Program-made: the position numbers and the translations under genes
Source of the DNA: Naegleria gruberi
Taxonomy: Eukaryota
NCBI GenBank assembly: GCA_000004985.1
Contig: GG738858.1
Length of the DNA: 64,000 bases
Reading direction: 5' to 3' (one strand)
Shown here: one piece after another, positions 19,538-30,315 of the stretch
How positions within the stretch are numbered: position 1 is the first letter of the stretch
Layout: every line of letters begins with the position of its first letter
The notes under the pieces: generated by a model
Databases searched by the model: none
What the model was told of the DNA's origin: nothing
The model's input: the letters and a program-made list of their open reading frames with translations, nothing else

Positions 19538-21166
19538 CTAATTTGATGTTCTCAATTTAAAATCACTAAAGTCAATACCCATAACACTATATCTAATCTT
19601 CTTAATGGTATCTTGATCTTTTGCTCCGTTAAGTGAGAAGAAACAATTATCCCTCAATCGACCATTCTCCTCAATTACTTCAACCTCTGTATCGCCAATC
19701 ACAACAAATGATCTGTCGAATGCTTTCAATAGCCAAAAATCTTGATTACCTTCAACAGTTTTGAAATATTCGAGTGAGTCGATAAAATTGCAAAATATGT
19801 TGAGTGATTTTCTATTCTTAAAAGTAGAGGAGTTCTTGTTGGTGTAATCATTGGAAATATTAGTCTTACTAATCATATCTCTCAAAATTTCAGAGAAATA
19901 GAATGTTCGGTCAACTTTTCCATTCCTTAAATTATCAAAATACTTGTCAAAGCATTCACTCTTTGGAAGTTGCAAATTCAAAGCAGATAGTACCTCAGAT
20001 GTGAAATGTTGGCAATTGGCTTTGAATTGGTGATATTGAACTGATCCATTATATTTACAAATAATTTCAGTCAACTTTCTAAATGTTTGCTTAACATTCT
20101 CAGCACCACGTATTTCTCCAATGTCAATTGCTGCAATTGTCTTGTCAGATTTGATTTGTTGAATAGAGTCACTCCTTACAATAACAGTTGATGAGTTGAA
20201 CCATTCAATCTTCCATTCACCAATTAAAAGGCCAGTATGAACAATTCCCATATCAGCATTTGAAAAGTAGCTCATTAACTTGGTCATAAAAGGACTATTA
20301 CCTAAATCAGAAATCAACAACTTGACTCGCAGAAATGGTTCACAATTAAGCTTCTTTGAATTTTGCTTAACAATAGAACTCATAAATTCCCTATTCAATA
20401 ATCTATCTTCACACACCAAGTTTTGAGCATCCACTTCCAAATCGCCTGTCATTCTAGCATCTTTGGGAGTTCTATTATTCTTTCTCAAGAAATCATAATA
20501 TTTCTCTAACTTTTTCTTGGCCATTCCAACTCGATCCTTTTCTAAAAGAGTTAATCTGTTTGCACTATATTGGACATCGGTTGTGGTTGGGTACGCAGTA
20601 GCATCAATAATAGCAGGTGTTGGAGAAATACTTGGCTTTGAGAAAAGTGTTTCATTGATTGATTCAAAAGTTTTGTTGGGTTTGTTCACTGGGTTGACAG
20701 AGGTAGAATTCTGGCCAGCTTGACCATCTGATTCCAAAGTATCTTCCGAGACATTTAGTACTAATCTATTCGAATCATCTTCAAACTTGACTCTTCCACT
20801 CTTTTCATCATCAATTTTCTTCTTCATGATAACTTGTTCCAAAAACACAATTGCAGAAATATTATCAATCTTGTACTTGGACATCTTTTGTTGCAACAGT
20901 TCCTTTTCTTGTTGAATTTTGGCATAATTAGTTTCCTTTGCCAACCCTTCGAATAACTTTCCATTAAAATCATTGTTCATTGTTACAGCATTTATGACAG
21001 TATCGTTCTTGAAATTGTAATGAATACATAAACAAAACAAGTCCCTATTGCTACATTCTCGAAGAGGTTTTGCCTCTGCCTCTTCAATCTCATCACTGGG
21101 TGGACTGATTTCTTCAGAGAATCTAATAATACTTGACGTGTTGCCCATTTTTTTAAATTGTATCAT
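19538..21166 (-). CDS. Hypothetical protein, likely N-myristoylated (MGNTSS at the second in-frame ATG, 21148)
   Basis: A 542-aa ORF with ATGs at 21166 and 21148. No recognizable domain. Its C-terminal ~160 aa is paralogous to the fragment at 22188..22670. Confidence 0.55.
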   Translation of the reverse strand: MIQFKKMGNTSSIIRFSEEISPPSDEIEEAEAKPLRECSNRDLFCLCIHYNFKNDTVINAVTMNNDFNGKLFEGLAKETNYAKIQQEKELLQQKMSKYKIDNISAIVFLEQVIMKKKIDDEKSGRVKFEDDSNRLVLNVSEDTLESDGQAGQNSTSVNPVNKPNKTFESINETLFSKPSISPTPAIIDATAYPTTTDVQYSANRLTLLEKDRVGMAKKKLEKYYDFLRKNNRTPKDARMTGDLEVDAQNLVCEDRLLNREFMSSIVKQNSKKLNCEPFLRVKLLISDLGNSPFMTKLMSYFSNADMGIVHTGLLIGEWKIEWFNSSTVIVRSDSIQQIKSDKTIAAIDIGEIRGAENVKQTFRKLTEIICKYNGSVQYHQFKANCQHFTSEVLSALNLQLPKSECFDKYFDNLRNGKVDRTFYFSEILRDMISKTNISNDYTNKNSSTFKNRKSLNIFCNFIDSLEYFKTVEGNQDFWLLKAFDRSFVVIGDTEVEVIEENGRLRDNCFFSLNGAKDQDTIKKIRYSVMGIDFSDFKLRTSN

Positions 21167-21211: not shown

Positions 21212-22187
21212 CGGACCTTTTGAAGCATTGTAATGAACAATTTTGTCTGATAAGAAGAAAATTCCAATCGAGAAGTTTGGGACTCAATTCTTTAATGGCA
21301 TGGTTAAGTAATTGAATAAAAAGACTACAGCACCACAGGTTCCCAAGTTGTCTCCAACCTCAGTACTGATGTGGCTCGACGATGCTTAACTTCTCAAATC
21401 GGACGGGATGAGGTGCATTCATCGTGATATGGCCGTAGCCATTCACATTCTTAAAAAGTTATTCATAAACAACTACCTTAATGATTAAATTAAGAAATTG
21501 GTTAAATCAATGCAAAAGGAATATAAGTTGAAAACGATTTCAATTGTTAATTTGGACGGGAAGCCTGCCAGGAATATGGCGACAATCCCGCTACAGTCTT
21601 TGACTGTATGAACAGTGAAGTCAAGAGTTCTTGGACGAATCTTGTTTGTTCAGGTTATTGAAGAAAGTAAAAAGGTCGATCACTCTTCTACTTATTGATC
21701 ATTTGATATGATGAATTGTTCCATGAAAATTGTTGAATTAAATAGAGGTCACTATTTTCCCTTCCATTTATATATTCTTCATCATGATCCTTAATAAAAT
21801 CTATTAAACCGTCACGAATGTTTAAAAATACATCTGCCTCATACCATGATAAGCAAATATTTCCATGTTGTTTTTCAATATAATATGATATTTGATTTGA
21901 AATTATTTCAAATTGATAAAGAAATACAAGCATATCAATATTTTAATCTTTAACTTGACATGATAAAATAGACTTGTTAAAAAAATCAAATCATATATTG
22001 GCGAAGGTTCTTCCTCATCAATATATTTTATTAACAAAGATTCAACTTTAATTTGTAATATTGTAAGTCTTATCACCTTAATATCTGAATGAGAAATATT
22101 ATTATCTATAACAAATTCTTAATACAATTATTCTTTTATCACCAAAGTAATTGAGCAATTGTTGAAAGAGTAAATAACAATCATTTA

Positions 22188-22670
22188 TTACCTCTTTAAT
22201 ACACAATCACTGAAATCAACATCTTTAACACTGTACTTGATATGAGTGATGGAATCTTGATCTCTTCCTCCATTAGTTGTGAAGAATCCATTCTCTTTGA
22301 CTCCTGTAGAATCAAAAGTAAGACAAATTTCATCCTCCCCAACCAAAACAAATGACCTATCAAATGCCTTCAAAAGCCAAAAATCACTTTGACCTGCCTC
22401 AATGTCAAAATATTTGATATGTTCAAGAAAATGACAAAATTCATCCAATGATTTTCTATTCTCGAATCTAATGTTCTTCAAACCAATATAAGGGTTTGTA
22501 ATGTTGCATGTTTTAAATAATGTTGCCAAATTTTCATTCACAAAGAAAGTTCTGTCAGTTTCTCCTCTTTTCAATTTGTCAAAATAAATTTTGAAAGATT
22601 CACTCACTGGAAGTGTCAAATTCAATGCCTCTAATAAATCTGAAACGAAATGTTGGCAATTAGCCCCCAA
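22188..22670 (-). pseudogene. Truncated paralog (C-terminal ~160 aa) of the 19538..21166 gene; a gene fragment or terminal exon of a disrupted copy
   Basis: About 50% aa identity to the C-terminus of the neighbouring gene (ANCQHF..DRTFF..FWLLKAFDRSFV..). The track start is TTG. There is an in-frame TAA 10 codons upstream. Only ~290 bp separate it from the (TA)n tract and the retroelement, which is too short for the missing ~380 N-terminal aa. Confidence 0.4.
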
Positions 22671-22782
22671 TAATGAATAATCTTAGTAATACCGTTTCAG
22701 TTTTACCTAGTTGTAATAAACACCGGAAATTTATTTATGATTTTAACAATAAAAGCTGAAAGTAGTTAAATGATGATATTTG

Positions 22783-22786
<4 letters not shown>

Positions 22787-22821
<35 letters not shown>

Positions 22822-22822
22822 A
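22787..22822. repeat. (TA)18 microsatellite
   Basis: atatatat... run read directly. Confidence 0.9.
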
Positions 22823-22962
22823 ATTGATGTTAGATATTAGTTGTTCCATTTATTTTTAAACTACTCCATCAACCTCCATGAATCTAGTTGTCTATTTCTT
22901 GTTGTAAGAGTTTTTCTTTGTTTTAATTAACAACTATCACAACTCTACTTTTACTACTTCTA

Positions 22963-23067
22963 ATGTTCTTATCGAAGTTTACTGAGATAAAGTAGTGTTT
23001 CTTGAAAACAACAATTGAATAAACTAATAATAGAAAGTATGCTCAAAAAAATTGTCATACTATGGTC
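22963..23067 (+). repeat. Split direct repeat A1 of the retroelement (105 bp)
   Basis: Identical copy at 26999..27103. The gag ATG (23062) lies inside its 3' end. Confidence 0.85.
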
Positions 23068-24189
23068 GCTAAGAAGCCTCAAGATATTGACTCCTCTTCA
23101 TCTGATGAAGATCTCCCAGCAGTTGAAGTAGAATACCCCACAACACCAGTGAAAGCAAGAAAACAACAAGCTGCTAAGAAGCTTAGAAAGTTAAAGGCCA
23201 TGTCACCTGTAGCTAATAGAAATAAGCGCAAACAATCTACTTCAGTTTCATCATCTAACAGTGCCTTAGATGATGGTATTTCAACTGTTGTTTCCAGTTC
23301 GTTGCTAAGCAATTCAACTTTGTTGGATAGTTCTTCAACTGCACCCTCTTCGTCAAACAATTCGTCTTCTTCCAATTCAGGTAGAGATAGTTTTGCCAGT
23401 AGTTCATCTGAACATGATATCATGGCGATCAAAGCCCAAATGCAAGAAATGATTGGAGTTTTGAGAACCGTAACAGGAAATATCTCTGAACTTACTAAGA
23501 AAGTTCAGGAGAGAGAAGAAGAATCAGATGATGATTTTGTTAATCCAGAAGCTATATCTCCAGAAGTTTGGTTACGTCAAACTTATAGAGACCTTAGAAG
23601 TTCTTACAATGTTCCTTCATCTATTGGAGATGATTTATTACTTTCTGCAGTATCCTCCGAGATACTTAAAGACCGTAAACAAGAGGAGACCAAGAGAAGA
23701 ATTCAATATTTGCTCCTTAAATACAAGGATGTGATTTCCAAGTTTGCCCCAGACATTAGATTGGATGAGATTAACAGTATTGGTTATTCTAAACTAGTAG
23801 AGTTAACTCAAATCAAAATTGAATTGTTGGAATATGCATTGAATTCTCCACTTGATTTTACAGTCATGACAGAGATTACAGAACTTTGTAGAATGATTTG
23901 CAAAGTTGAAGCCCTCTTCCTTAAAGAAGGTTTACAAGTTTCCACTTTCGATGTTGGTAGAGAATTCCTTAACAGATACATTTCTACTAATAGTTTCGAA
24001 ACTGCTGCCGAAAGTGAACTTCATAATATTAGAACAACATATCATTACTACAAAGCAACCAAGCAGCAACAAGGTCCAAAGGGAATTACCAAGAAGTATT
24101 CTAAGAAGAAACCGTTTCAAAAGAAAAACAATAAGGGTCAAGGAAACGGTGGTAAATTCCAAGGAAAAGATAAGGATAAGTCAGAATGA
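23062..24189 (+). CDS. Retroelement ORF1 (Gag-like; Ser-rich N-terminus, coiled-coil, basic C-terminus)
   Basis: ATG inside repeat A1. 375 aa. A basic KKYSKKKPFQKKNNKGQGNGGKFQGK tail is typical of nucleic-acid-binding Gag. Confidence 0.6.
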   Translation: MVAKKPQDIDSSSSDEDLPAVEVEYPTTPVKARKQQAAKKLRKLKAMSPVANRNKRKQSTSVSSSNSALDDGISTVVSSSLLSNSTLLDSSSTAPSSSNNSSSSNSGRDSFASSSSEHDIMAIKAQMQEMIGVLRTVTGNISELTKKVQEREEESDDDFVNPEAISPEVWLRQTYRDLRSSYNVPSSIGDDLLLSAVSSEILKDRKQEETKRRIQYLLLKYKDVISKFAPDIRLDEINSIGYSKLVELTQIKIELLEYALNSPLDFTVMTEITELCRMICKVEALFLKEGLQVSTFDVGREFLNRYISTNSFETAAESELHNIRTTYHYYKATKQQQGPKGITKKYSKKKPFQKKNNKGQGNGGKFQGKDKDKSE

Positions 24190-26062
24190 CTCTTCCACTC
24201 CCTCCTTCCAAGGAGGAAGATTACAACAGTTTTGGAAAAAGTGGCAAATCTTCCCCAAAACTGTTGCAGAATGGATAAGAGAGGGTATTCCAATCCATTC
24301 AGAAAAAGAAAAATGGATCGATATTCCACTAAGATCTCATTTTTCAGAAAAGGAAGATTCATGGTTAAAGAGCGAAATCTCAGATTTACTCAAAACCAAT
24401 ATTATAGAAATTGGAAACAAGGACACTGTCATAAATCCGATTCACGTGGTTCCGAAGAAAGGCAAAGACCAGTTTCGTCTAATCCTAGATTTGAGATCCA
24501 TAAATGCTGGTATAAACAACGACTCATTCAAAATGGATCATATTCACAAAACTCTAAAGTTTCTATCAAAAGACATGTTAGGAATCAAAATAGATTTGAT
24601 GAAAGGTTATCATCACGTTCCAGTGAAGGAAACAGATCGAAAGTTATTGGGATTCAGGTACAACGGCCAGATTTACCATTACAAGTGCCTACCATTCGGT
24701 CTGAACATTGCTCCAAGATTATTCTCCAAGATAATGAAGGTCTTAGTTCAAAGATGGAGAGTAAGAGGAATCTCGGTATTCATTTATTTAGACGATATCT
24801 TAGTGGTAAATCATTCAAAAGATCAGTTGATCTTAGACAGAGATATAGTTCTAAAGGATTTAGAAGAGTTTGGATTCCTCATTCAAAAAGACAAATGTTG
24901 TTTAAATCCAACTCAATTAATAGAATACCTAGGAGTTTTGTTAGACTTTCATCAAGGTTTGGTAAAAATTCCAGAAGACAAAAGGATTACAGCTTTAGAA
25001 TTCATAGAGGAGCTACTCAATGCTTCCCAGAAACGGCTTTATGTTCCATGCAAGAGAGTTGCCAAGTTCCTAGGAAAGTTGGAATTTCTAACAATTGCCA
25101 ACAAGTACCTTTCACCATTCATGTGTCGTCTTCGAAAGAACATGGTTTCAGTAGTATCAGGAAGAGGTTGGCACGCATCAATGCAAATTCACAAAGGCGC
25201 ATTCAAGGATTTATTGATTCTAAGGGAGTTAATTCAAAAGAACGATGGTCATCCGTTCGAATTGGATTGGATTCTCCCAGTGATTGTGAATTCAGATGCA
25301 ACACCTCAAGGTTTCGGCATTCACTCAGGTTCAATCGTTACTGTTGGAAAGTTCAATGGAGAAGAGCACATCAATGTCAAGGAACTAAGAGCCTTACTGC
25401 TTTATTTCAAACAAGCAGACGAATTAAATCTTTATCCAGATTTCACAAATTTCGAATTGAGAGTAGACAACATGGTAGCCGTGGCATATCTAAAGAAGGG
25501 TTATGGATCAAAAGACGATCTCGCAAAGATAGCAAGAGACATCTCAAAGATTCTAATGAGAAGAAATTGGTGGATTTGCAAAGTGATTTACATCCCATCC
25601 AAACAGAATTTCCTAGCAGACAGGTTGAGTCGATTGATGGATTGGGGATCCACCAAGGAACTAATCGAATTAGTCAACCAAGAATTTGGAATACACCATG
25701 TGGACAGATTTGCAACAACGAGTTCGGCAACTACCCTTGTATTCAATTCATGGAAAGAGAACGACGCGTTCAAAAGTCTTTGGGAAAAAGAACTAGTGAG
25801 TTATTGTGTTCCTCCAATAGGATTGATCAGTCAAGCTCTCATTCATCTTATCAAATCCAGATCAATAGCGACATTTGTAATTCCAGAATGGAGCTCCTCG
25901 ATTTGGTGGCCTCTACTCTTAAAGCTATTAAAGAAGAGAAAAAGTATCACAAGAAGGATGCTTTTAATCAAACTATTATCCGAATTATGGATCAAATTCG
26001 AAGGAACGACGTTCATAATTGCTCATCTGGATGGAAACTTATACTTCAAACCAGAGATTTAG
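23906..26062 (+). CDS. Retroelement pol ORF: reverse transcriptase, RNase H, and the DIRS-type C-terminal HVDRFAT..PP..WW domain
   Basis: The RT motif is FIYLDDILVVNHS (YxDD). The RNase H motif is NFLADRLSR. The C-terminal segment has HVDRFATTSSATTLVFNSW..YCVPPIGLI..PEWSSSIWWP. The frame is open from 23906 with a TTG in the track. The first ATG is at ~23951. It overlaps gag by ~280 nt, so expression is by frameshift or internal start. Confidence 0.75.
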   Translation: MKPSSLKKVYKFPLSMLVENSLTDTFLLIVSKLLPKVNFIILEQHIITTKQPSSNKVQRELPRSILRRNRFKRKTIRVKETVVNSKEKIRISQNDSSTPSFQGGRLQQFWKKWQIFPKTVAEWIREGIPIHSEKEKWIDIPLRSHFSEKEDSWLKSEISDLLKTNIIEIGNKDTVINPIHVVPKKGKDQFRLILDLRSINAGINNDSFKMDHIHKTLKFLSKDMLGIKIDLMKGYHHVPVKETDRKLLGFRYNGQIYHYKCLPFGLNIAPRLFSKIMKVLVQRWRVRGISVFIYLDDILVVNHSKDQLILDRDIVLKDLEEFGFLIQKDKCCLNPTQLIEYLGVLLDFHQGLVKIPEDKRITALEFIEELLNASQKRLYVPCKRVAKFLGKLEFLTIANKYLSPFMCRLRKNMVSVVSGRGWHASMQIHKGAFKDLLILRELIQKNDGHPFELDWILPVIVNSDATPQGFGIHSGSIVTVGKFNGEEHINVKELRALLLYFKQADELNLYPDFTNFELRVDNMVAVAYLKKGYGSKDDLAKIARDISKILMRRNWWICKVIYIPSKQNFLADRLSRLMDWGSTKELIELVNQEFGIHHVDRFATTSSATTLVFNSWKENDAFKSLWEKELVSYCVPPIGLISQALIHLIKSRSIATFVIPEWSSSIWWPLLLKLLKKRKSITRRMLLIKLLSELWIKFEGTTFIIAHLDGNLYFKPEI

Positions 26063-26967
26063 GGATGTTGGTTTCGATTAAGGAAGAAACCTTCAAACTT
26101 TACACTAGAAACTATAATGGTTTCTTATGGTTTATTACTGCATTCAATATTTCAATGGATGACCCTTATGCTATTGAGTATTATGCAGCTTATCTTACAA
26201 TTCAAGGTCAAACATCTCGTGTTGAAGCCTTGAGACCATCCCTTCAATTTTGGGCCAATATTGAGAGAAGAGTTTTTCCAATTTCATGGTCTTATGATAA
26301 GATTAAAAGAGGAATTACTCTTATTTGGTCCTTGATTGATAGAAAAGCTTTGAAACGTGATCCAATTTTCTATCATCATATTGAAGGTTTCATTCAGAGA
26401 AAAGATCATTATGATCCTTTCATTTTCAAACTCACTAGTGCCATGTTAGTCATTGGTTTCAGACTTTTCGCTAGACCAGGTGAATTAGCTAGACTCAAGT
26501 GGGGTTATGTTACAAAGCTTAGAAATGGTAACATCAAATTAGATCTCAGTGGTCACAAAACAGATTTCTTTCTACTAGAAAAGCCGATTACTATTGACAA
26601 GCATCTTGAAAATCCTTCAGTGTGTCCAGTGAAATTGCTTTTTGATTACATAGACACTGTACAGCATTTCAAAAAAGCAGATTCACCATTGTTTTCATTG
26701 CAGGACAATATTTTCTTCAACACTGAAGATGTTTCTCAACTTATCAAGAATGCTATGTTCTCTGTTGATTCAGAAATCACTGTTTCTGGTCACAGTTTAC
26801 GTATTGGTGCAACTACTGAGAGTATTATCAAGGGAATTCCTACTCAGGATATTATTATGGGGACTAGACATAAGGATGTGAAATCTTTACAACCTTATCA
26901 AAGACAAGAAGCTCTTGCAGCTCGCCACTTGTCTACTACTCTCCTTTCTCGGGACAATATCCATTAG
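24232..26967 (+). CDS. Retroelement ORF with a C-terminal tyrosine recombinase domain (~26063..26967); its N-terminal 1.8 kb is an overprinted open frame over pol
   Basis: The C-terminal 300 aa contain ARPGELARL, GHSLRIGATT (HxxR) and a downstream Tyr, as in DIRS/Ngaro YRs. The upstream part is a 600-codon stop-free frame overlapping the RT frame. It translates as R/S/K-rich low complexity. Confidence 0.55.
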   Translation: MEKVANLPQNCCRMDKRGYSNPFRKRKMDRYSTKISFFRKGRFMVKERNLRFTQNQYYRNWKQGHCHKSDSRGSEERQRPVSSNPRFEIHKCWYKQRLIQNGSYSQNSKVSIKRHVRNQNRFDERLSSRSSEGNRSKVIGIQVQRPDLPLQVPTIRSEHCSKIILQDNEGLSSKMESKRNLGIHLFRRYLSGKSFKRSVDLRQRYSSKGFRRVWIPHSKRQMLFKSNSINRIPRSFVRLSSRFGKNSRRQKDYSFRIHRGATQCFPETALCSMQESCQVPRKVGISNNCQQVPFTIHVSSSKEHGFSSIRKRLARINANSQRRIQGFIDSKGVNSKERWSSVRIGLDSPSDCEFRCNTSRFRHSLRFNRYCWKVQWRRAHQCQGTKSLTALFQTSRRIKSLSRFHKFRIESRQHGSRGISKEGLWIKRRSRKDSKRHLKDSNEKKLVDLQSDLHPIQTEFPSRQVESIDGLGIHQGTNRISQPRIWNTPCGQICNNEFGNYPCIQFMERERRVQKSLGKRTSELLCSSNRIDQSSSHSSYQIQINSDICNSRMELLDLVASTLKAIKEEKKYHKKDAFNQTIIRIMDQIRRNDVHNCSSGWKLILQTRDLGMLVSIKEETFKLYTRNYNGFLWFITAFNISMDDPYAIEYYAAYLTIQGQTSRVEALRPSLQFWANIERRVFPISWSYDKIKRGITLIWSLIDRKALKRDPIFYHHIEGFIQRKDHYDPFIFKLTSAMLVIGFRLFARPGELARLKWGYVTKLRNGNIKLDLSGHKTDFFLLEKPITIDKHLENPSVCPVKLLFDYIDTVQHFKKADSPLFSLQDNIFFNTEDVSQLIKNAMFSVDSEITVSGHSLRIGATTESIIKGIPTQDIIMGTRHKDVKSLQPYQRQEALAARHLSTTLLSRDNIH

Positions 26968-27103
26968 TTTATTTATTGTTGGTTTTCTTTTAAGAAACAT
27001 GTTCTTATCGAAGTTTACTGAGATAAAGTAGTGTTTCTTGAAAACAACAATTGAATAAACTAATAATAGAAAGTATGCTCAAAAAAATTGTCATACTATG
27101 GTC
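26957..27103 (+). repeat. Internal B1 (26957..27000) and A2 (26999..27103) junction of the split direct repeats
   Basis: B1 equals B2 (27778..27821) and A2 equals A1. The B1/A2 abutment is the hallmark internal junction of Ngaro/PAT-like elements. Confidence 0.8.
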
Positions 27104-27777
27104 CCACCCTTGCCCACCCTCTATTATTATTAGTTTATTCAAATCAAAGGTTCTAACCTTTGTCCTTAATACTTTGGAATGTGATTTTTTAACCAATCCT
27201 CAAATATTTTCTCAATTGATTGAAAGATTTCACTCTATTTGTATTATTGAAAGATGATTGTTATCATCTTTTTATCTTTGTATTATTATTTGATATTTGA
27301 CATCATTTATTGATGTTTTTTATCATGATTGGTGATCTAAAACCAATTGTTGGTGATCTAAAACCGACAGATCAACTTTATGTTGATTAGAAGGTATCTG
27401 ATACCTTTCCCTTACTATTAGTAAGGCAATATGTACTGAACATACCTCTTTTCTCATTCTCGTTTTGATTCGTAAGTGTCAAGACGGTTGAGTAGGTTTT
27501 TTAATTCTTAACTTTTTAGTTTTTACCGATTTTTTTTTTTTTTCCTACAAGAGTAGGTTTTTTTATATGGGAGTTGTTTCTCCAAAAAACAACTTGGTTT
27601 ATTGTCAGATTGCTTTAATTTAGTTTAGTTTTTGCTTTTTGTTAAGAAATCATAGTATGATTGTATTGATTAGTTTATTTAATTTCTGGACCTGCTGAAT
27701 AAAGCTTAATGCCTAAAAACAGCAGTAACCAGGCTACAAACTACCTAAGAATAGGTAGAAGTTGTAGTGTGAGCTTT

Positions 27778-27821
27778 ATATCCATTAGTTTATTTATTGT
27801 TGGTTTTCTTTTAAGAAACAT
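27778..27821 (+). repeat. Split direct repeat B2 (element 3' terminus)
   Basis: A 44-bp copy identical to 26957..27000. Confidence 0.8.
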
Positions 27822-27878
27822 ATCAACTGATGGGTAAAAACCACAAACAAACCAACTAGCTGTGACCTTTCAAAAAAA

Positions 27879-29813
27879 ATGCAAAGACCAAACATTTCAC
27901 AGGATTTAGAGTCTCACATTTCCAGCAGCACATCAACAGCTTCATTTTCCAACTTACCTTACGTTAATTCAGAGAAACATCTAATCAAGTCAAATGTCAA
28001 TGGCAAGTCAAGATGTAATTTACCTACAATTCTCTTACTATTATTCATCCTCACAAGTTTGGTGATGATTTTTTATTTGACGTCCAAGCGAGGAGTAAGA
28101 GGAGAAGCCAGAGTATTCCCTGTCACTTATCTAGATGTCGATTTCACAAATTCTGAAAATTTAAAACTCAACCGAGTGAGAGGTCTTTGTAAAATATTCT
28201 TATCAACCTATTATTTGTTTAATTATAATGAAAAATCACCTAATTATGTTCCACCAACAGTTATTGGTGCTGACGGTGCTCCTGAAGCAAAATATAGTAA
28301 GTTTGATGGTTGGCATTTAATTAGTGAAAATTGACATGTGAAATGTAAAGCTCATTGGAAGAAGATTGAGAGGACTTTTCAATTTTTATCGGGTGGAGAG
28401 TCTAACTATATTGATGATCATGATATTATTGTTTTCAGTGATGCAACAGATGTTTTATTCATCAATAATATTGAAAATGTCAAGAAAGTATACGAAACTT
28501 ACTATATCAAGGAAATTGCTAATATTGATTTGAAAGATAGTGAGAGAGATTGGCCTATTGTGTTTATTGCTGAAAAGAATAAGTGGCCACCAAATGATTT
28601 CATTCAAAATATGTTTACAGTAAGTGTTTCTAATAGAATTTACTAATTTTCTCGATTCATACTCTAGGAAGATTGTCATAATTATGTGGGGGTGGGTGGG
28701 TCGTGAAAAAAGGATGTCCATAATTACGTGGTCCAGAGTGGGTCAGAAAGTAGAGCAGAGCAAAAAACAAAAATTGGCAAAAGTAGAGCCGAAGGTTTAT
28801 TAGCCAAGAGTGAGACAGTGTTCAAAGTATCAATTATCACTTGTTCTGCTAGCAACAAGTACTTCTGGGTTCTTGATTGTTTGTGTACCAACAACTTTGG
28901 GCAGGCATTCATCTAGATTGTTATGGTTGAATGTGCTATGGCTGATGTGGAAGGAAGCAAAGGGAGAACTCTCCTCCTGGTACTGATGAAGGTTGGTAGT
29001 TAGCAGGGTGATGAAATCATGAGTAATTGTTGTTTGTTGTTTTTTTTTGTTGAATATAACGGTCAGAACATTCAACTTTCAGCGGTAACATGTTTGGTAG
29101 TGTGAAAAAACTCACATGCAGTGGCCAGGATTTGTTGGGACGATCTTACAGTGAGGTTGGGTGGGTCAAAAAGTGAGGGTCGTAATGACAATCTTCCCTA
29201 TTAGAAAACACCTGAGGAGGAGAATATGGTCGAAAAATACTACTATGACATTAATGGCTATAGAGTTAAGAGAAATTGTGCATCAGCAAATGATAGAATT
29301 TATTTAAATAGTGGACTTTACGTTGGAAGAAAACGTGATATTAGAAAGGCACTTTCCATTGGATTGAATGTGAAAAGAGGTGAACCAAAGGAAAGAATTG
29401 AAGATCAAGCGCTATTCCAATACATTTATGCCACCAATAAGTATCCAATTCTTATGGATTGTGAAAAGAAAATGTTTTACAGTCCATTCTCAGCTTGTGA
29501 TACAATTGTTAGTGAGGAAGAGAAGAAGTGGTCGTGTTCTATTCGTGATGGTCAGGAGGAGACACCAGATAGTGTTGTCTACGTTCATTCAAATGGTGGA
29601 TTTTGTTATTCACTTTGTAATTGTTTCACTTCAATGAAACAAAAAGGAATGTTCAAGAATTTAATGGAACAGTATCAGGACAAGTTGAGTTTCAAGTCGT
29701 ATGATATTAATTCTAGAAAAGTGAGAAGTGTTTTGATGAAATATGCTTGTGGACACTTTGTTGATGAAGATTTCGCTTTGGATTCATGTAATACTCAACC
29801 TCCTCCTGCTTAG
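27879..29813 (+). CDS. Type-II membrane protein (signal-anchor TILLLLFILTSLVMIFYL), possible Golgi glycosyltransferase-like protein; 3-exon model
   Basis: Exon 1 is 27879..28296 (TAT A|gtaagt). The 54-nt intron is 28297..28350 (..taaag) and removes the in-frame TGA at 28332. Exon 2 is 28351..28619 (ACA|gtaagt, phase 0). Intron 2 is 28620..29204 and contains a ~530-bp MITE. Its original sequence would be ~55 nt and ends ctattag. Exon 3 is 29205..29813 (KTPEEENMVEKYYYD...). Exon 3 linkage is inferred from phase compatibility only. Confidence 0.4.
28667..29198. mobile_element. Non-autonomous TIR element (MITE, ~530 bp) with 13-14-bp TIRs GGAAGATTGTCAT.../...ATGACAATCTTCC flanked by TA; Tc1/mariner-Stowaway-like
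   Basis: Left end reads cTA|GGAAGATTGTCATAA and right end reads TAATGACAATCTTCC(C)|TAtta. Interior GC content is higher than the flanks. There is no long ORF. It lies inside the putative second intron of the 27879..29813 gene. Confidence 0.4.
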
Positions 29814-29928: not shown

Positions 29929-30242
29929 TTGTGTTGCAGTCATAAAATATTAACTTATTGCTGTTAGCATTTATTAAGGTTAAATTGTATTGATGAACAA
30001 TTTATTGTGCTCCCTATGATTTTTCTTCTTGTTAACCATCATTCTCACTATTTTCCCAATCATATTGAGCTAGTAATTCTGTAATCTTTTCGTGTAATTA
30101 AAAAATTAGGAAAAGCTATCATCACACCATGCCATGGATGGCTGGCCTGTTTATCAGGAGGAATCAGTAATTCCTTTATTCACAGAGGCACCACTCTGGT
30201 CCAACTCTGCTGATAGTAATAAAGAATAAGAAAAAAGGTTAG

Positions 30243-30315
30243 CTCCCCCTGGTGGGCTCGAACCACCGACCTGCAGATTAACAGTCTGACGCTCTACCGA
30301 CTGAGCTAAGGGGGA
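30243..30315 (-). tRNA. tRNA-Asn(GUU)
   Basis: Minus-strand read: TCCCCCT-TA-GCTC-AGTCGGTA-GAGC-G-TCAGA-CTGTTAA-TCTGC-AGGTC-GGTGG-TTCGAGC-CCACC-AGGGGGA-G. Canonical cloverleaf with anticodon GTT. No intron. Confidence 0.85.

What the first reader, a model, noticed from the sequence alone, without database searches (positions are those of the whole stretch)
22963..27821. Intact Ngaro/PAT-like tyrosine-recombinase retrotransposon with perfect split direct repeats
The layout is A1(105 bp) - gag - RT/RNase H - YR - B1(44 bp)A2(105 bp) - 675-bp tail - B2(44 bp). Both repeat pairs are identical in the parts I compared, and all three ORFs are open. That implies a recent, possibly still mobile, copy. 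DIRS-order elements are a sparsely described retrotransposon order. The gag ATG sits inside the A1 repeat.
Basis: partly seen in the sequence, partly recalled or inferred. Interest (0 to 1): 0.6.

Follow-up and report, generated by a model that had tools for sequence, protein, structure and literature searches.

The report
Intact tyrosine-recombinase retrotransposon in Naegleria
This is a complete, apparently young copy of a rare kind of jumping gene (a DIRS-order retrotransposon that inserts with a tyrosine recombinase instead of an integrase) in the amoeba Naegleria gruberi; the kind is already known, also from this species, but this copy shows its full anatomy unusually clearly.

Summary
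A (105 nt) and B (44 nt) are each present twice at 100% identity in the order A1–ORFs–B1A2–674 bp–B2, and all reading frames are open. The window is Naegleria gruberi nuclear DNA.

The element encodes Gag, a Pol with reverse transcriptase (RT), RNase H (RH) and a PCIF1-like methyltransferase (MT) domain, and a Cre-like tyrosine recombinase (YR) with the full R-K-H-R-H-Y catalytic set. It has no integrase, no LTRs and no target-site duplication.

The MT domain and a 925-codon YR frame that overlaps all of pol exclude Ngaro. By structure it is a DIRS-group element with PAT-type split direct repeats. N. gruberi DIRS-type sequences were already listed in a 2011 survey, so this is a new, well-preserved member of a known kind.

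New details:
- Gag and the YR frame are one frame, broken by a single UGA-C stop. Pol starts at that stop in the +1 frame. This holds in four lineages.
- The internal B1A2 junction is a conserved ~100-nt hairpin, because B is an inverted copy of part of A.
- At least 4 near-identical YR gene models exist in the genome, and there is an independent insertion elsewhere.

Expression by recoding and current mobility are inferred, not shown.

The parts
22963..23067 (+). A1, left terminal repeat. It carries the gag 5' leader and the gag ATG. Nt 34-67 form the right arm of the inverted repeat with B.
   Evidence: 100% identical to 26999-27103. The left boundary is confirmed by L001, whose flank diverges at 22963/22964.
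23062..24189 (+). gag-like ORF (375 aa). No CCHC zinc knuckle; basic Gly/Asn/Lys-rich C-terminus.
   Evidence: ORF. Homologous first ORFs occur in L001, L002, L003 and L058. It has only 2 Cys. The name 'gag' rests on position only; Pfam finds nothing.
24184..24190 (+). gag stop in the context GAA-UGA-C. Proposed recoding site: +1 shift into pol (next codon GAC) and readthrough into the YR frame.
   Evidence: UGA-C is present in 4 of 4 lineages, 3-10 codons before the first conserved pol motif G(G/C)RL. Both downstream frames are open from here. The function is inferred.
24188..26062 (+). pol ORF in the +1 frame relative to gag. RT is about 24449-24937 (YLDD at 24785-24796). RNase H is about 25295-25633 (D375, E404, D432, D483). 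The PCIF1-like MT domain is 25628-26059 (VDRFAT, CVPP).
24190..26064 (+). Overlapped part of the long YR frame. It is the same frame as gag: ~625 codons, Ser/Arg/Lys-rich, lying over pol.
   Evidence: 0 stops, against 29-40 expected from synonymous-codon shuffles (minimum 15-23 in 5000), in the window, L002 and L003. The frame is also open in L058. Its amino-acid identity between lineages is no better than that of the non-coding third frame.
26065..26967 (+). Tyrosine recombinase proper (300 aa), with a core-binding domain and a catalytic domain. Catalytic residues: R137 (26473), K165 (26557), H243 (26791), R246 (26800), H269 (26869), Y278 (26896).
26957..27000 (+). B1, internal copy of the right terminus. 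It overlaps the last 11 nt of the YR ORF, stop included.
   Evidence: 100% identical to 27778-27821.
26999..27103 (+). A2, internal copy of the left terminus. It abuts B1 with a 2-nt overlap (AT).
26963..27064 (.). Self-complementary junction. B nt 7-44 pair with A nt 34-67, giving a ~100-nt hairpin with a small apical stem-loop. The B|A join (26999/27000) lies at the top of the long stem, inside the near-palindrome TAAGAAACATGTTCTTA (26991-27007).
   Evidence: The B versus reverse-complement-A alignment scores 45, against a maximum of 41 in 2000 shuffles. RNA folds at -33.7 kcal/mol, z -5.7; minus-strand DNA gives z -6.7. L002 and L058 have the same architecture with different sequence (z -5.2 and -5.1).
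27104..27777 (+). Non-coding tail between A2 and B2 (30% GC). It holds two further copies of the 13-mer ATTAGTTTATTYA (27129-27141 and 27669-27681).
   Evidence: No ORF above 68 aa, no Rfam match and no similarity to the element body. The motif count is 6 against 1.0 expected.
27778..27821 (+). B2, right terminal repeat.
   Evidence: The flanks show no target-site duplication.

Best explanation
Window 22963-27821 is one full-length, uncorrupted copy of a DIRS-order retrotransposon of Naegleria gruberi. By structure it belongs to the methyltransferase-bearing DIRS group and has PAT-type split direct repeats.

What the sequence shows directly:
- It encodes Gag.
- It encodes an RT/RNase H/PCIF1-like-MT polyprotein.
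- It encodes a Cre-like tyrosine recombinase.
- It has no integrase, no LTRs and no target-site duplication.
- It keeps an internal exact copy (B1A2) of its two joined ends.

The likely life cycle is inferred from the experimentally supported DIRS-1 model (PMC7192593):
1. A full-length RNA, whose leader lies in A, is translated and reverse-transcribed.
2. The internal B1A2 junction is used to restore and join the termini into a circle. Pairing of B with A nt 34-67 can bring the two ends of a single strand together.
3. The YR recombines the CATG-centred junction with a target, leaving no duplication.

Expression is inferred from frame conservation in four lineages:
- Termination at the single UGA-C stop gives Gag.
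- A +1 shift at or just before that stop gives Gag-Pol.
- Readthrough of the same stop carries ribosomes through a ~610-codon unconstrained spacer, which overlaps pol, into the YR.
For: Host:
- Four flanking ORFs are exact matches to N. gruberi proteins on a 782-kb scaffold.

Repeats:
- Both pairs are exact.

Domains:
- RT, RNase H, MT and YR are supported.

Overlap:
- The YR frame has 0 stops over 617-624 pol codons, against 29-40 expected, in three lineages. A fourth lineage, L058, shows the same.

One frame for gag and YR:
- A single UGA-C stop separates them in 4 of 4 lineages.
- The first Met lies 19-117 codons downstream, with no stop in those 202 codons.
- The pol frame has no Met upstream in L058.

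Junction:
- The junction hairpin is conserved in architecture but not in sequence.

Multi-copy and mobile in the recent past:
- EFC46444, EFC36890, EFC35640 and EFC35398 differ by 1-3 residues.
- L001 is 99% identical and sits in a different flank.

Literature:
- Definitions are taken from PMC3266345 and PMC4157794.
- The internal complementary region (ICR), the DIRS-1 counterpart of B1A2, is essential for DIRS-1 retrotransposition (PMC7192593).
Against: - No transcript, protein, circle or new insertion was observed. Recoding and mobility are inferences.
- In L001 two pol-silent C>T changes put stops in the YR frame. Either that copy is dead or the open frame is not strictly required.
- RNA downstream of the stop is only mildly structured and shares no fold between lineages.
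- A conserved RTG 9-14 codons upstream of the stop could be an alternative pol start.
- A tail between A2 and B2 is not part of the textbook A1-[ORFs]-B1A2B2 scheme. It is absent after the junction in L001 and L058.
- Placement among reference DIRS1, PAT and Ngaro sequences by phylogeny could not be done.
- Other N. gruberi copies could not be read as DNA.
Confidence: 0.85

Rival explanations
1. It belongs phylogenetically to the DIRS1-like superfamily, as the 2011 survey assigned N. gruberi sequences. On this reading its termini are a reduced form of the inverted-terminal-repeat plus internal-complementary-region design, not a PAT lineage.
For: - Piednoël et al. assigned the N. gruberi sequences to DIRS1-like by tblastx against re-annotated Repbase (PMC3266345).
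- The long YR/pol overlap is typical of DIRS1-like elements.
- B is an imperfect inverted copy of A nt 34-67, so a 34-38-nt sub-terminal inverted repeat exists. The first 33 nt of A behave like the 'left extension' described for amoebozoan and fungal DIRS1-like elements.
Against: - The internal junction is a direct, exact copy of the joined ends, not their reverse complement. No inverted copy of A nt 1-33 exists in the element.
- That is the defining PAT/split-direct-repeat state (PMC4157794).
- It is not known whether the 2011 sequences include this family.
Confidence: 0.35
2. The locus is a head-to-tail pair rather than one element. On this reading an autonomous unit A-body-B (22963-27000) is followed by an 821-bp non-autonomous unit A-tail-B (26999-27821). 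The pair would be made by recombinase insertion of a circle into a resident B|A site, or by resolution of a two-junction circle.
For: - In L001 the B1A2 junction runs into a second, diverged gag rather than a tail.
- The ends of the L058 contig overlap, giving a ~3980-nt A-body-B unit with no tail.
- The tail is unrelated to the body and has its own copies of the 13-mer motif.
- DIRS-1 is known to insert preferentially into other DIRS-1 copies (PMC7192593).
Against: - A1-[ORFs]-B1A2...B2 is the standard layout of PAT, Ngaro and VIPER elements.
- An internal copy of the junction is needed to regenerate the ends.
- Both repeat pairs are identical, as expected from one replication event.
- The circular L058 contig may be an assembly effect of the repeats.
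Confidence: 0.12
3. It is a Ngaro element: a YR retrotransposon with split direct repeats, no methyltransferase and non-overlapping ORFs.
For: The split direct repeats have their internal copies downstream of the YR, as in Ngaro. Gag has no zinc finger.
Against: - The MT domain is present and folds like PCIF1.
- The YR frame overlaps pol for ~610 codons.
- Both features are excluded by the Ngaro definition.
Confidence: 0.03
4. It is an intact-looking but immobile copy, either silenced or a recent dead end. On this reading the open frames reflect youth, not present activity.
For: - TE content of N. gruberi is very low (0.28%).
- Young TEs in N. gruberi carry repressive 5mC (PMC12344493).
- Nine of 16 substitutions between the window and L001 are C:G>T:A.
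- DIRS-1 moves only in RNAi mutants.
Against: - All catalytic motifs are intact.
- Several ~99% copies and an independent insertion exist.
- The repeat pairs are identical.
Confidence: 0.3

Closest known systems
PAT superfamily of the DIRS group (Pat1-like, Toc3, kangaroo)
   Same: - Gag, RT/RH/MT and YR are all present.
- It has split direct repeats A1...B1A2...B2.
- The YR is in forward orientation and Gag has no zinc finger, as in Toc3 (PMC4157794).
   Different: - A 674-bp unique tail lies between A2 and B2.
- A and B are partly inverted copies of each other, so the internal junction is a hairpin.
- The YR frame overlaps the whole of pol and is in frame with gag.
- The host is a heterolobosean.
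- The phylogenetic relation to PAT references was not tested.
DIRS-1 of Dictyostelium discoideum and DIRS1-like elements
   Same: - It has the same three ORFs, including the PCIF1-like MT.
- It has a long YR/pol overlap, with the catalytic YR in the non-overlapping 3' end.
- An internal sequence represents the joined termini.
- There is no target duplication.
- The junction is self-complementary (PMC3266345, PMC7192593).
   Different: - DIRS1-like elements have long inverted terminal repeats and an internal region that is the reverse complement of the termini.
- Here the internal region is a direct exact copy. Only a 34-38-nt imperfect inverted repeat links the ends.
Ngaro and VIPER elements
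   Same: They are YR retrotransposons with the A1-[ORFs]-B1A2B2 repeat logic. VIPER is the other YR retrotransposon group known from Discoba (kinetoplastids).
   Different: They lack the MT domain and usually lack ORF overlap. This element has both.
N. gruberi DIRS-type sequences in Piednoël et al. 2011; the 'DIRS' class in the N. lovaniensis repeat table
   Same: They come from the same genome or genus and the same order of elements. The survey lists 7 sequences in 6 families. N. lovaniensis has 89 masked DIRS fragments (PMC3266345, PMC6125883).
   Different: Those reports give counts only. They call the copies too corrupted for analysis and describe no termini or ORF layout. This copy is intact.
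Recoding at a UGA-C stop (prfB and antizyme +1 frameshifting; alphavirus and UGA-CUAG readthrough) - from general knowledge
   Same: The gag stop is UGA followed by C in all four lineages. The +1 codon is GAC, as in the prfB site CUU-UGA-C. Three of four lineages read UGA-CU.
   Different: There is no experimental evidence here, no shared slippery codon before the stop and no shared downstream structure.

Membership tests
DIRS order (tyrosine-recombinase retrotransposons) | Reverse transcriptase and RNase H of the Ty3/gypsy-like type | tested here: met
   RVT_1 at 3.8e-26. YLDD and the RNase H residues D-E-D-D are present.
DIRS order (tyrosine-recombinase retrotransposons) | Tyrosine recombinase with catalytic R-K-H-R-H/W-Y, and no DDE integrase | tested here: met
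DIRS order (tyrosine-recombinase retrotransposons) | No target-site duplication | tested here: met
   The flanks are ...TACTTCTA | ATCAACTG... Only the 2-nt AT is ambiguous. This rests on one insertion only.
DIRS group sensu Szitenberg 2014 (MT-bearing) | Methyltransferase-like domain after RNase H | tested here: met
PAT superfamily | Split direct repeats A1...B1A2...B2 | tested here: met
   The 105-nt and 44-nt pairs are 100% identical, and B1 abuts A2.
PAT superfamily | RT/YR sequences cluster with PAT reference elements | not testable with these tools
   No named DIRS1, PAT or Ngaro reference sequences could be retrieved.
Pat1-like (subgroup of PAT) | Zinc-finger motif in Gag | tested here: not met
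   Gag has 2 Cys and 3 His and no CCHC spacing. This resembles Toc3 and kangaroo instead.
DIRS1-like superfamily | Inverted terminal repeats | tested here: inconclusive
   Only a 34-38-nt imperfect inverted repeat links A nt 34-67 and B nt 7-44. It is offset 33 nt from the left end.
DIRS1-like superfamily | Internal complementary region that is the reverse complement of both termini | tested here: not met
   The internal region is a direct exact copy of the termini. No inverted copy of A nt 1-33 exists. It is only partly self-complementary.
DIRS1-like superfamily | Long overlap of the YR and pol ORFs (present in about half of described members) | tested here: met
   About 610 codons overlap, with 0 stops against 29-40 expected.
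Ngaro | No MT domain and no long ORF overlap | tested here: not met
   The MT domain is present and the overlap is present.
LTR retrotransposon (Ty3/gypsy) | Two long terminal direct repeats, a DDE integrase and a target duplication | tested here: not met
   The repeats are split, there is no integrase and there is no duplication.

The most novel reading that the evidence does not exclude
In this Naegleria lineage one leaky UGA-C stop at the end of gag would act as a three-way switch on a single mRNA.
- Termination gives Gag.
- A +1 shift gives Gag-Pol.
- Readthrough gives a Gag-spacer-recombinase protein. Its ~610-codon spacer is merely the other reading of pol and is kept free of stops but not conserved in sequence.

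In addition, the termini combine exact split direct repeats with an inverted repeat that turns the internal junction into a hairpin. That would make the family the intermediate between the PAT/Ngaro and DIRS1 end designs that Szitenberg et al. (2014) said had not been observed.
Probability: 0.3. Interest if true: 0.6.

Novelty: new member of a known kind. Interest (0 to 1): 0.35.

Why it matters
DIRS-order elements are the least studied retrotransposon order. Only DIRS-1 of Dictyostelium has been tested experimentally, and the earlier survey treated excavate copies as too degraded to analyse.

An intact, multi-copy element in a culturable, genetically compact amoeba gives a clean reference for annotating Naegleria genomes, where its YR is currently labelled 'predicted protein'. 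It also offers two testable points:
- How three proteins are made from frames that all meet at one stop codon.
- How direct and inverted end repeats cooperate in circle formation.

It does not change what is known about the order's existence or distribution.

Tried and rejected
- Exact-protein look-ups of gag, the 300-aa YR, EFC46444, EFC47282 and EFC41855 returned no DNA. Other N. gruberi copies, empty sites and their termini therefore could not be examined.
- The metagenome scan for relatives gave only hits of 28% identity or less. The viral-contig scan gave none.
- The contig of P0002 (77% relative) had no DNA available.
- A profile search for named DIRS1 or PAT references found none, so there is no phylogeny.
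- The YR alone against PDB sequences gave nothing. The MT profile against PDB sequences also gave nothing. Both were settled by profile or fold searches instead.
- A consensus fold of the junction from three lineages was poor because the sequences do not align. Folding each lineage on its own was informative.
- The test for protein-level constraint on the overlapped YR frame was negative. Its identity was no better than that of the non-coding third frame.
- The search for a shared RNA structure after the gag stop was inconclusive.
- Rfam and ORF scans of the tail found nothing.
- A yeast origin, my first guess from the composition and gene density, was rejected.


Full report
**1. The observation**

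The repeat finder on 22000-29000 returns two exact direct-repeat pairs. A is 22963-23067 = 26999-27103 (105 nt, 100%). B is 26957-27000 = 27778-27821 (44 nt, 100%). Thirty-five- to 38-nt sub-strings of each occur exactly twice in the 64-kb window, against none in 100 shuffles.

The layout is A1 - ORFs - B1A2 - 674 bp - B2. B1 and A2 share 2 nt (AT). The gag ATG (23062) lies inside A1. The coordinates and the claim of identity are correct.

**2. Host**

The window is gene-dense, 31-37% GC. Four flanking ORFs are exact matches to Naegleria gruberi proteins (EFC46570, EFC46440, EFC46579, EFC46452), all on one 782-kb scaffold. The element lies in a short intergenic stretch between ORFs at 22188-22670 (-) and 27879-28334 (+). 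Neither has a Pfam match.

**3. Coding content**

- **Gag** (23062-24189, 375 aa) has no Pfam match and no zinc knuckle. It is homologous to the first ORF of four related contigs.
- **Pol** carries RVT_1 (3.8e-26), a weak RNase H match and a weak Dam match.
  - The alignment with 18 relatives shows YLDD, the RNase H residues D-E-D-D, and the DIRS methyltransferase motifs (VDRFAT, CVPP, VIPEW..WWP).
  - Ten of 19 relatives hit Dam and two hit PCIF1_WW.
  - This fits the published derivation of the DIRS MT domain from PCIF1 (PMC4738411).
- **YR**: the last 300 codons of the long frame (26065-26964) hit Phage_integrase at 1.4e-4.
  - A family profile hits XerA (7e-7) and Cre (3.5e-6), with Cre R173, H289, R292, W315 and Y324 aligned to R137, H243, R246, H269 and Y278. 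K165 sits in the GHKTD hairpin.
- No integrase domain and no LTRs are present.

**4. Frame architecture**

Gag and the YR frame are the same reading frame. After the single gag stop (TGA, 24187-24189) that frame stays open for 925 codons to the YR stop. Pol lies wholly inside it, in the +1 frame.

The same holds in relatives whose Pol is 47-56% identical:
- L002: 926 codons.
- L003: open to the contig end.
- L058: 919 codons.

Shuffling synonymous pol codons gives 29-40 stops in that frame (minimum 15-23 in 5000 shuffles), against 0 observed, in each of three lineages. Openness is therefore selected.

The encoded sequence is not selected. Its identity between lineages exceeds shuffles no more than the stop-filled third frame does. 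It is Ser/Arg/Lys-rich. A long YR/pol overlap with the catalytic part in the non-overlapping 3' end is a described DIRS1-like trait.

**5. The stop codon**

- In all four lineages the gag stop is UGA followed by C (GAA-UGA-C, CAA-UGA-C, AAA-UGA-C, CUC-UGA-C).
- The +1 codon is GAC in all four.
- The first conserved pol motif G(G/C)RL follows 3-10 codons later.
- The first Met of the long frame lies 27, 19, 39 and 117 codons after the stop. There is no stop in those 202 codons, where about 11 would be expected at the density seen. This argues that ribosomes enter by reading through the gag stop rather than by internal initiation.
- The pol frame is open only 44-97 codons upstream and has no Met there in L058. 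A +1 shift in this short overlap is therefore the simplest route to Gag-Pol.

From general knowledge, UGA-C is the weakest termination context. It is the site type used by prfB and antizyme +1 shifts and by UGA-C(U) readthrough.

Three points weigh against the model:
- No shared downstream structure exists (z -1.8 to -3.0, different folds).
- A conserved RTG 9-14 codons upstream could be an alternative start.
- In L001 two pol-silent C>T changes put stops in the YR frame.

This model is inference. I found no paper in the library describing recoding in DIRS elements.

**6. Ends and junction**

- B nt 7-44 is an imperfect inverted copy of A nt 34-67 (score 45 against at most 41 in 2000 shuffles).
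- The internal B1A2 therefore folds into a ~100-nt hairpin with a small apical stem-loop. RNA gives -33.7 kcal/mol, z -5.7. The minus strand as DNA gives z -6.7.
- L002 and L058 have unalignable sequence there, yet fold the same way (z -5.2 and -5.1).
- The B|A join lies at the top of the long stem, inside the near-palindrome TAAGAAACATGTTCTTA. The element begins ATG and ends CAT.
- On any single strand, B2 can pair with A1 nt 34-67 and bring the two termini together. The internal copy supplies an exact template of the join.
- A 13-mer, ATTAGTTTATTYA, occurs six times in the window, always in A, B or the tail (expected 1.0).
- The tail is non-coding, has no Rfam match and is unrelated to the body.
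- The flanks show no target duplication.

**7. Copies and relatives**

- The YR of this locus is annotated as EFC46444, 'predicted protein'.
- Three more N. gruberi gene models (EFC36890, EFC35640, EFC35398) differ from it by 1-3 residues.
- Two further N. gruberi families are ~51% identical.
- N. fowleri has a 785-aa long-frame homologue.
- L001, a metagenome contig, is 99.2% identical but has a different left flank starting at the same element base. It is therefore an independent insertion.
  - Its two A copies differ at 2-3 positions.
  - Its B1A2 runs into a second, diverged gag rather than a tail.
- The ends of L058 overlap, giving a tail-less unit.
- These observations allow a rival reading: the window locus could be a full unit followed by an 821-bp non-autonomous unit. 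I could not test this because no other N. gruberi DNA was retrievable.

**8. Comparison with what is known**

By the structure-based scheme (PMC4157794):
- The MT domain puts the element in the DIRS group.
- Split direct repeats put it in PAT.
- A forward YR and a Gag without a zinc finger resemble Toc3.
- Ngaro and VIPER are excluded by the MT domain and the overlap.
- DIRS1-like in the strict sense is not met for the internal complementary region, and is inconclusive for inverted terminal repeats.

Piednoël et al. listed 7 DIRS-type sequences (6 families) in N. gruberi. They assigned them to DIRS1-like by tblastx and called them too corrupted to analyse. N. lovaniensis repeat masking lists 89 DIRS fragments. 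A phylogeny with named references was not possible.

**9. Verdict**

The finding is real and correctly interpreted apart from the Ngaro option. It is a well-preserved new member of a known kind, in a genome where the kind was already recorded. The in-frame gag-UGA-YR arrangement and the hairpin junction are the parts worth a specialist's follow-up.

Noticed in passing
L001 4036-4324 (relative of window 26957-27103): In the 99% identical metagenome copy the B1A2 junction is followed by a second, slightly diverged gag (ATG changed to ATA), not by the tail. This is a head-to-tail junction of two units, or an insertion into a resident B|A site.
   Followed up: partly
L058 1-127 and 3981-4107: The two ends of this contig are the same sequence (YR end - B - start of A). 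It closes into a ~3980-nt A-gag-pol/YR-B unit without a tail. This could be tandem copies, a circular form or an assembly effect of the repeats.
   Followed up: partly
window 23039-23053 and 27075-27089: The 15-mer ATGCTCAAAAAAATT, 9 nt upstream of the gag ATG, is conserved in L058 and (as far as the contig reaches) in L002. The surrounding non-coding DNA is unalignable. It is a candidate cis element such as a start site or primer site.
   Followed up: no
window 23016-23028(-), 26963-26975, 27052-27064(-), 27129-27141, 27669-27681, 27784-27796: The 13-mer ATTAGTTTATTYA occurs six times, only in A, B and the tail (1.0 expected by chance). It is a possible protein-binding site. The copy at 27129 can pair with A2 as an alternative hairpin.
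   Followed up: partly
window 24661 and 25018 versus L001: Two C>T differences are silent in pol but create stop codons in the overlapping YR frame of L001. Nine of 16 substitutions between the two copies are C:G>T:A, which would fit deamination of methylated cytosines.
   Followed up: partly
L001, L003, L058 (sample ERR1078381 / ERZ929261, PRJEB11402): One environmental metagenome holds at least three lineages of this element family, including a 99% match to the N. gruberi copy. A close Naegleria relative is therefore present in that sample.
   Followed up: no
window 22785-22818: A perfect (AT)17 microsatellite lies 145 bp upstream of the insertion point.
   Followed up: no
window 30242-30315 (-): A tRNA-Asn (GTT) gene lies 2.4 kb downstream of the element.
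   Followed up: no
window 19538-21166 (-): An ORF with a weak PPPDE peptidase (Peptidase_C97) match lies here. The ORF at 22188-22670 next to the element has no family match.
   Followed up: no
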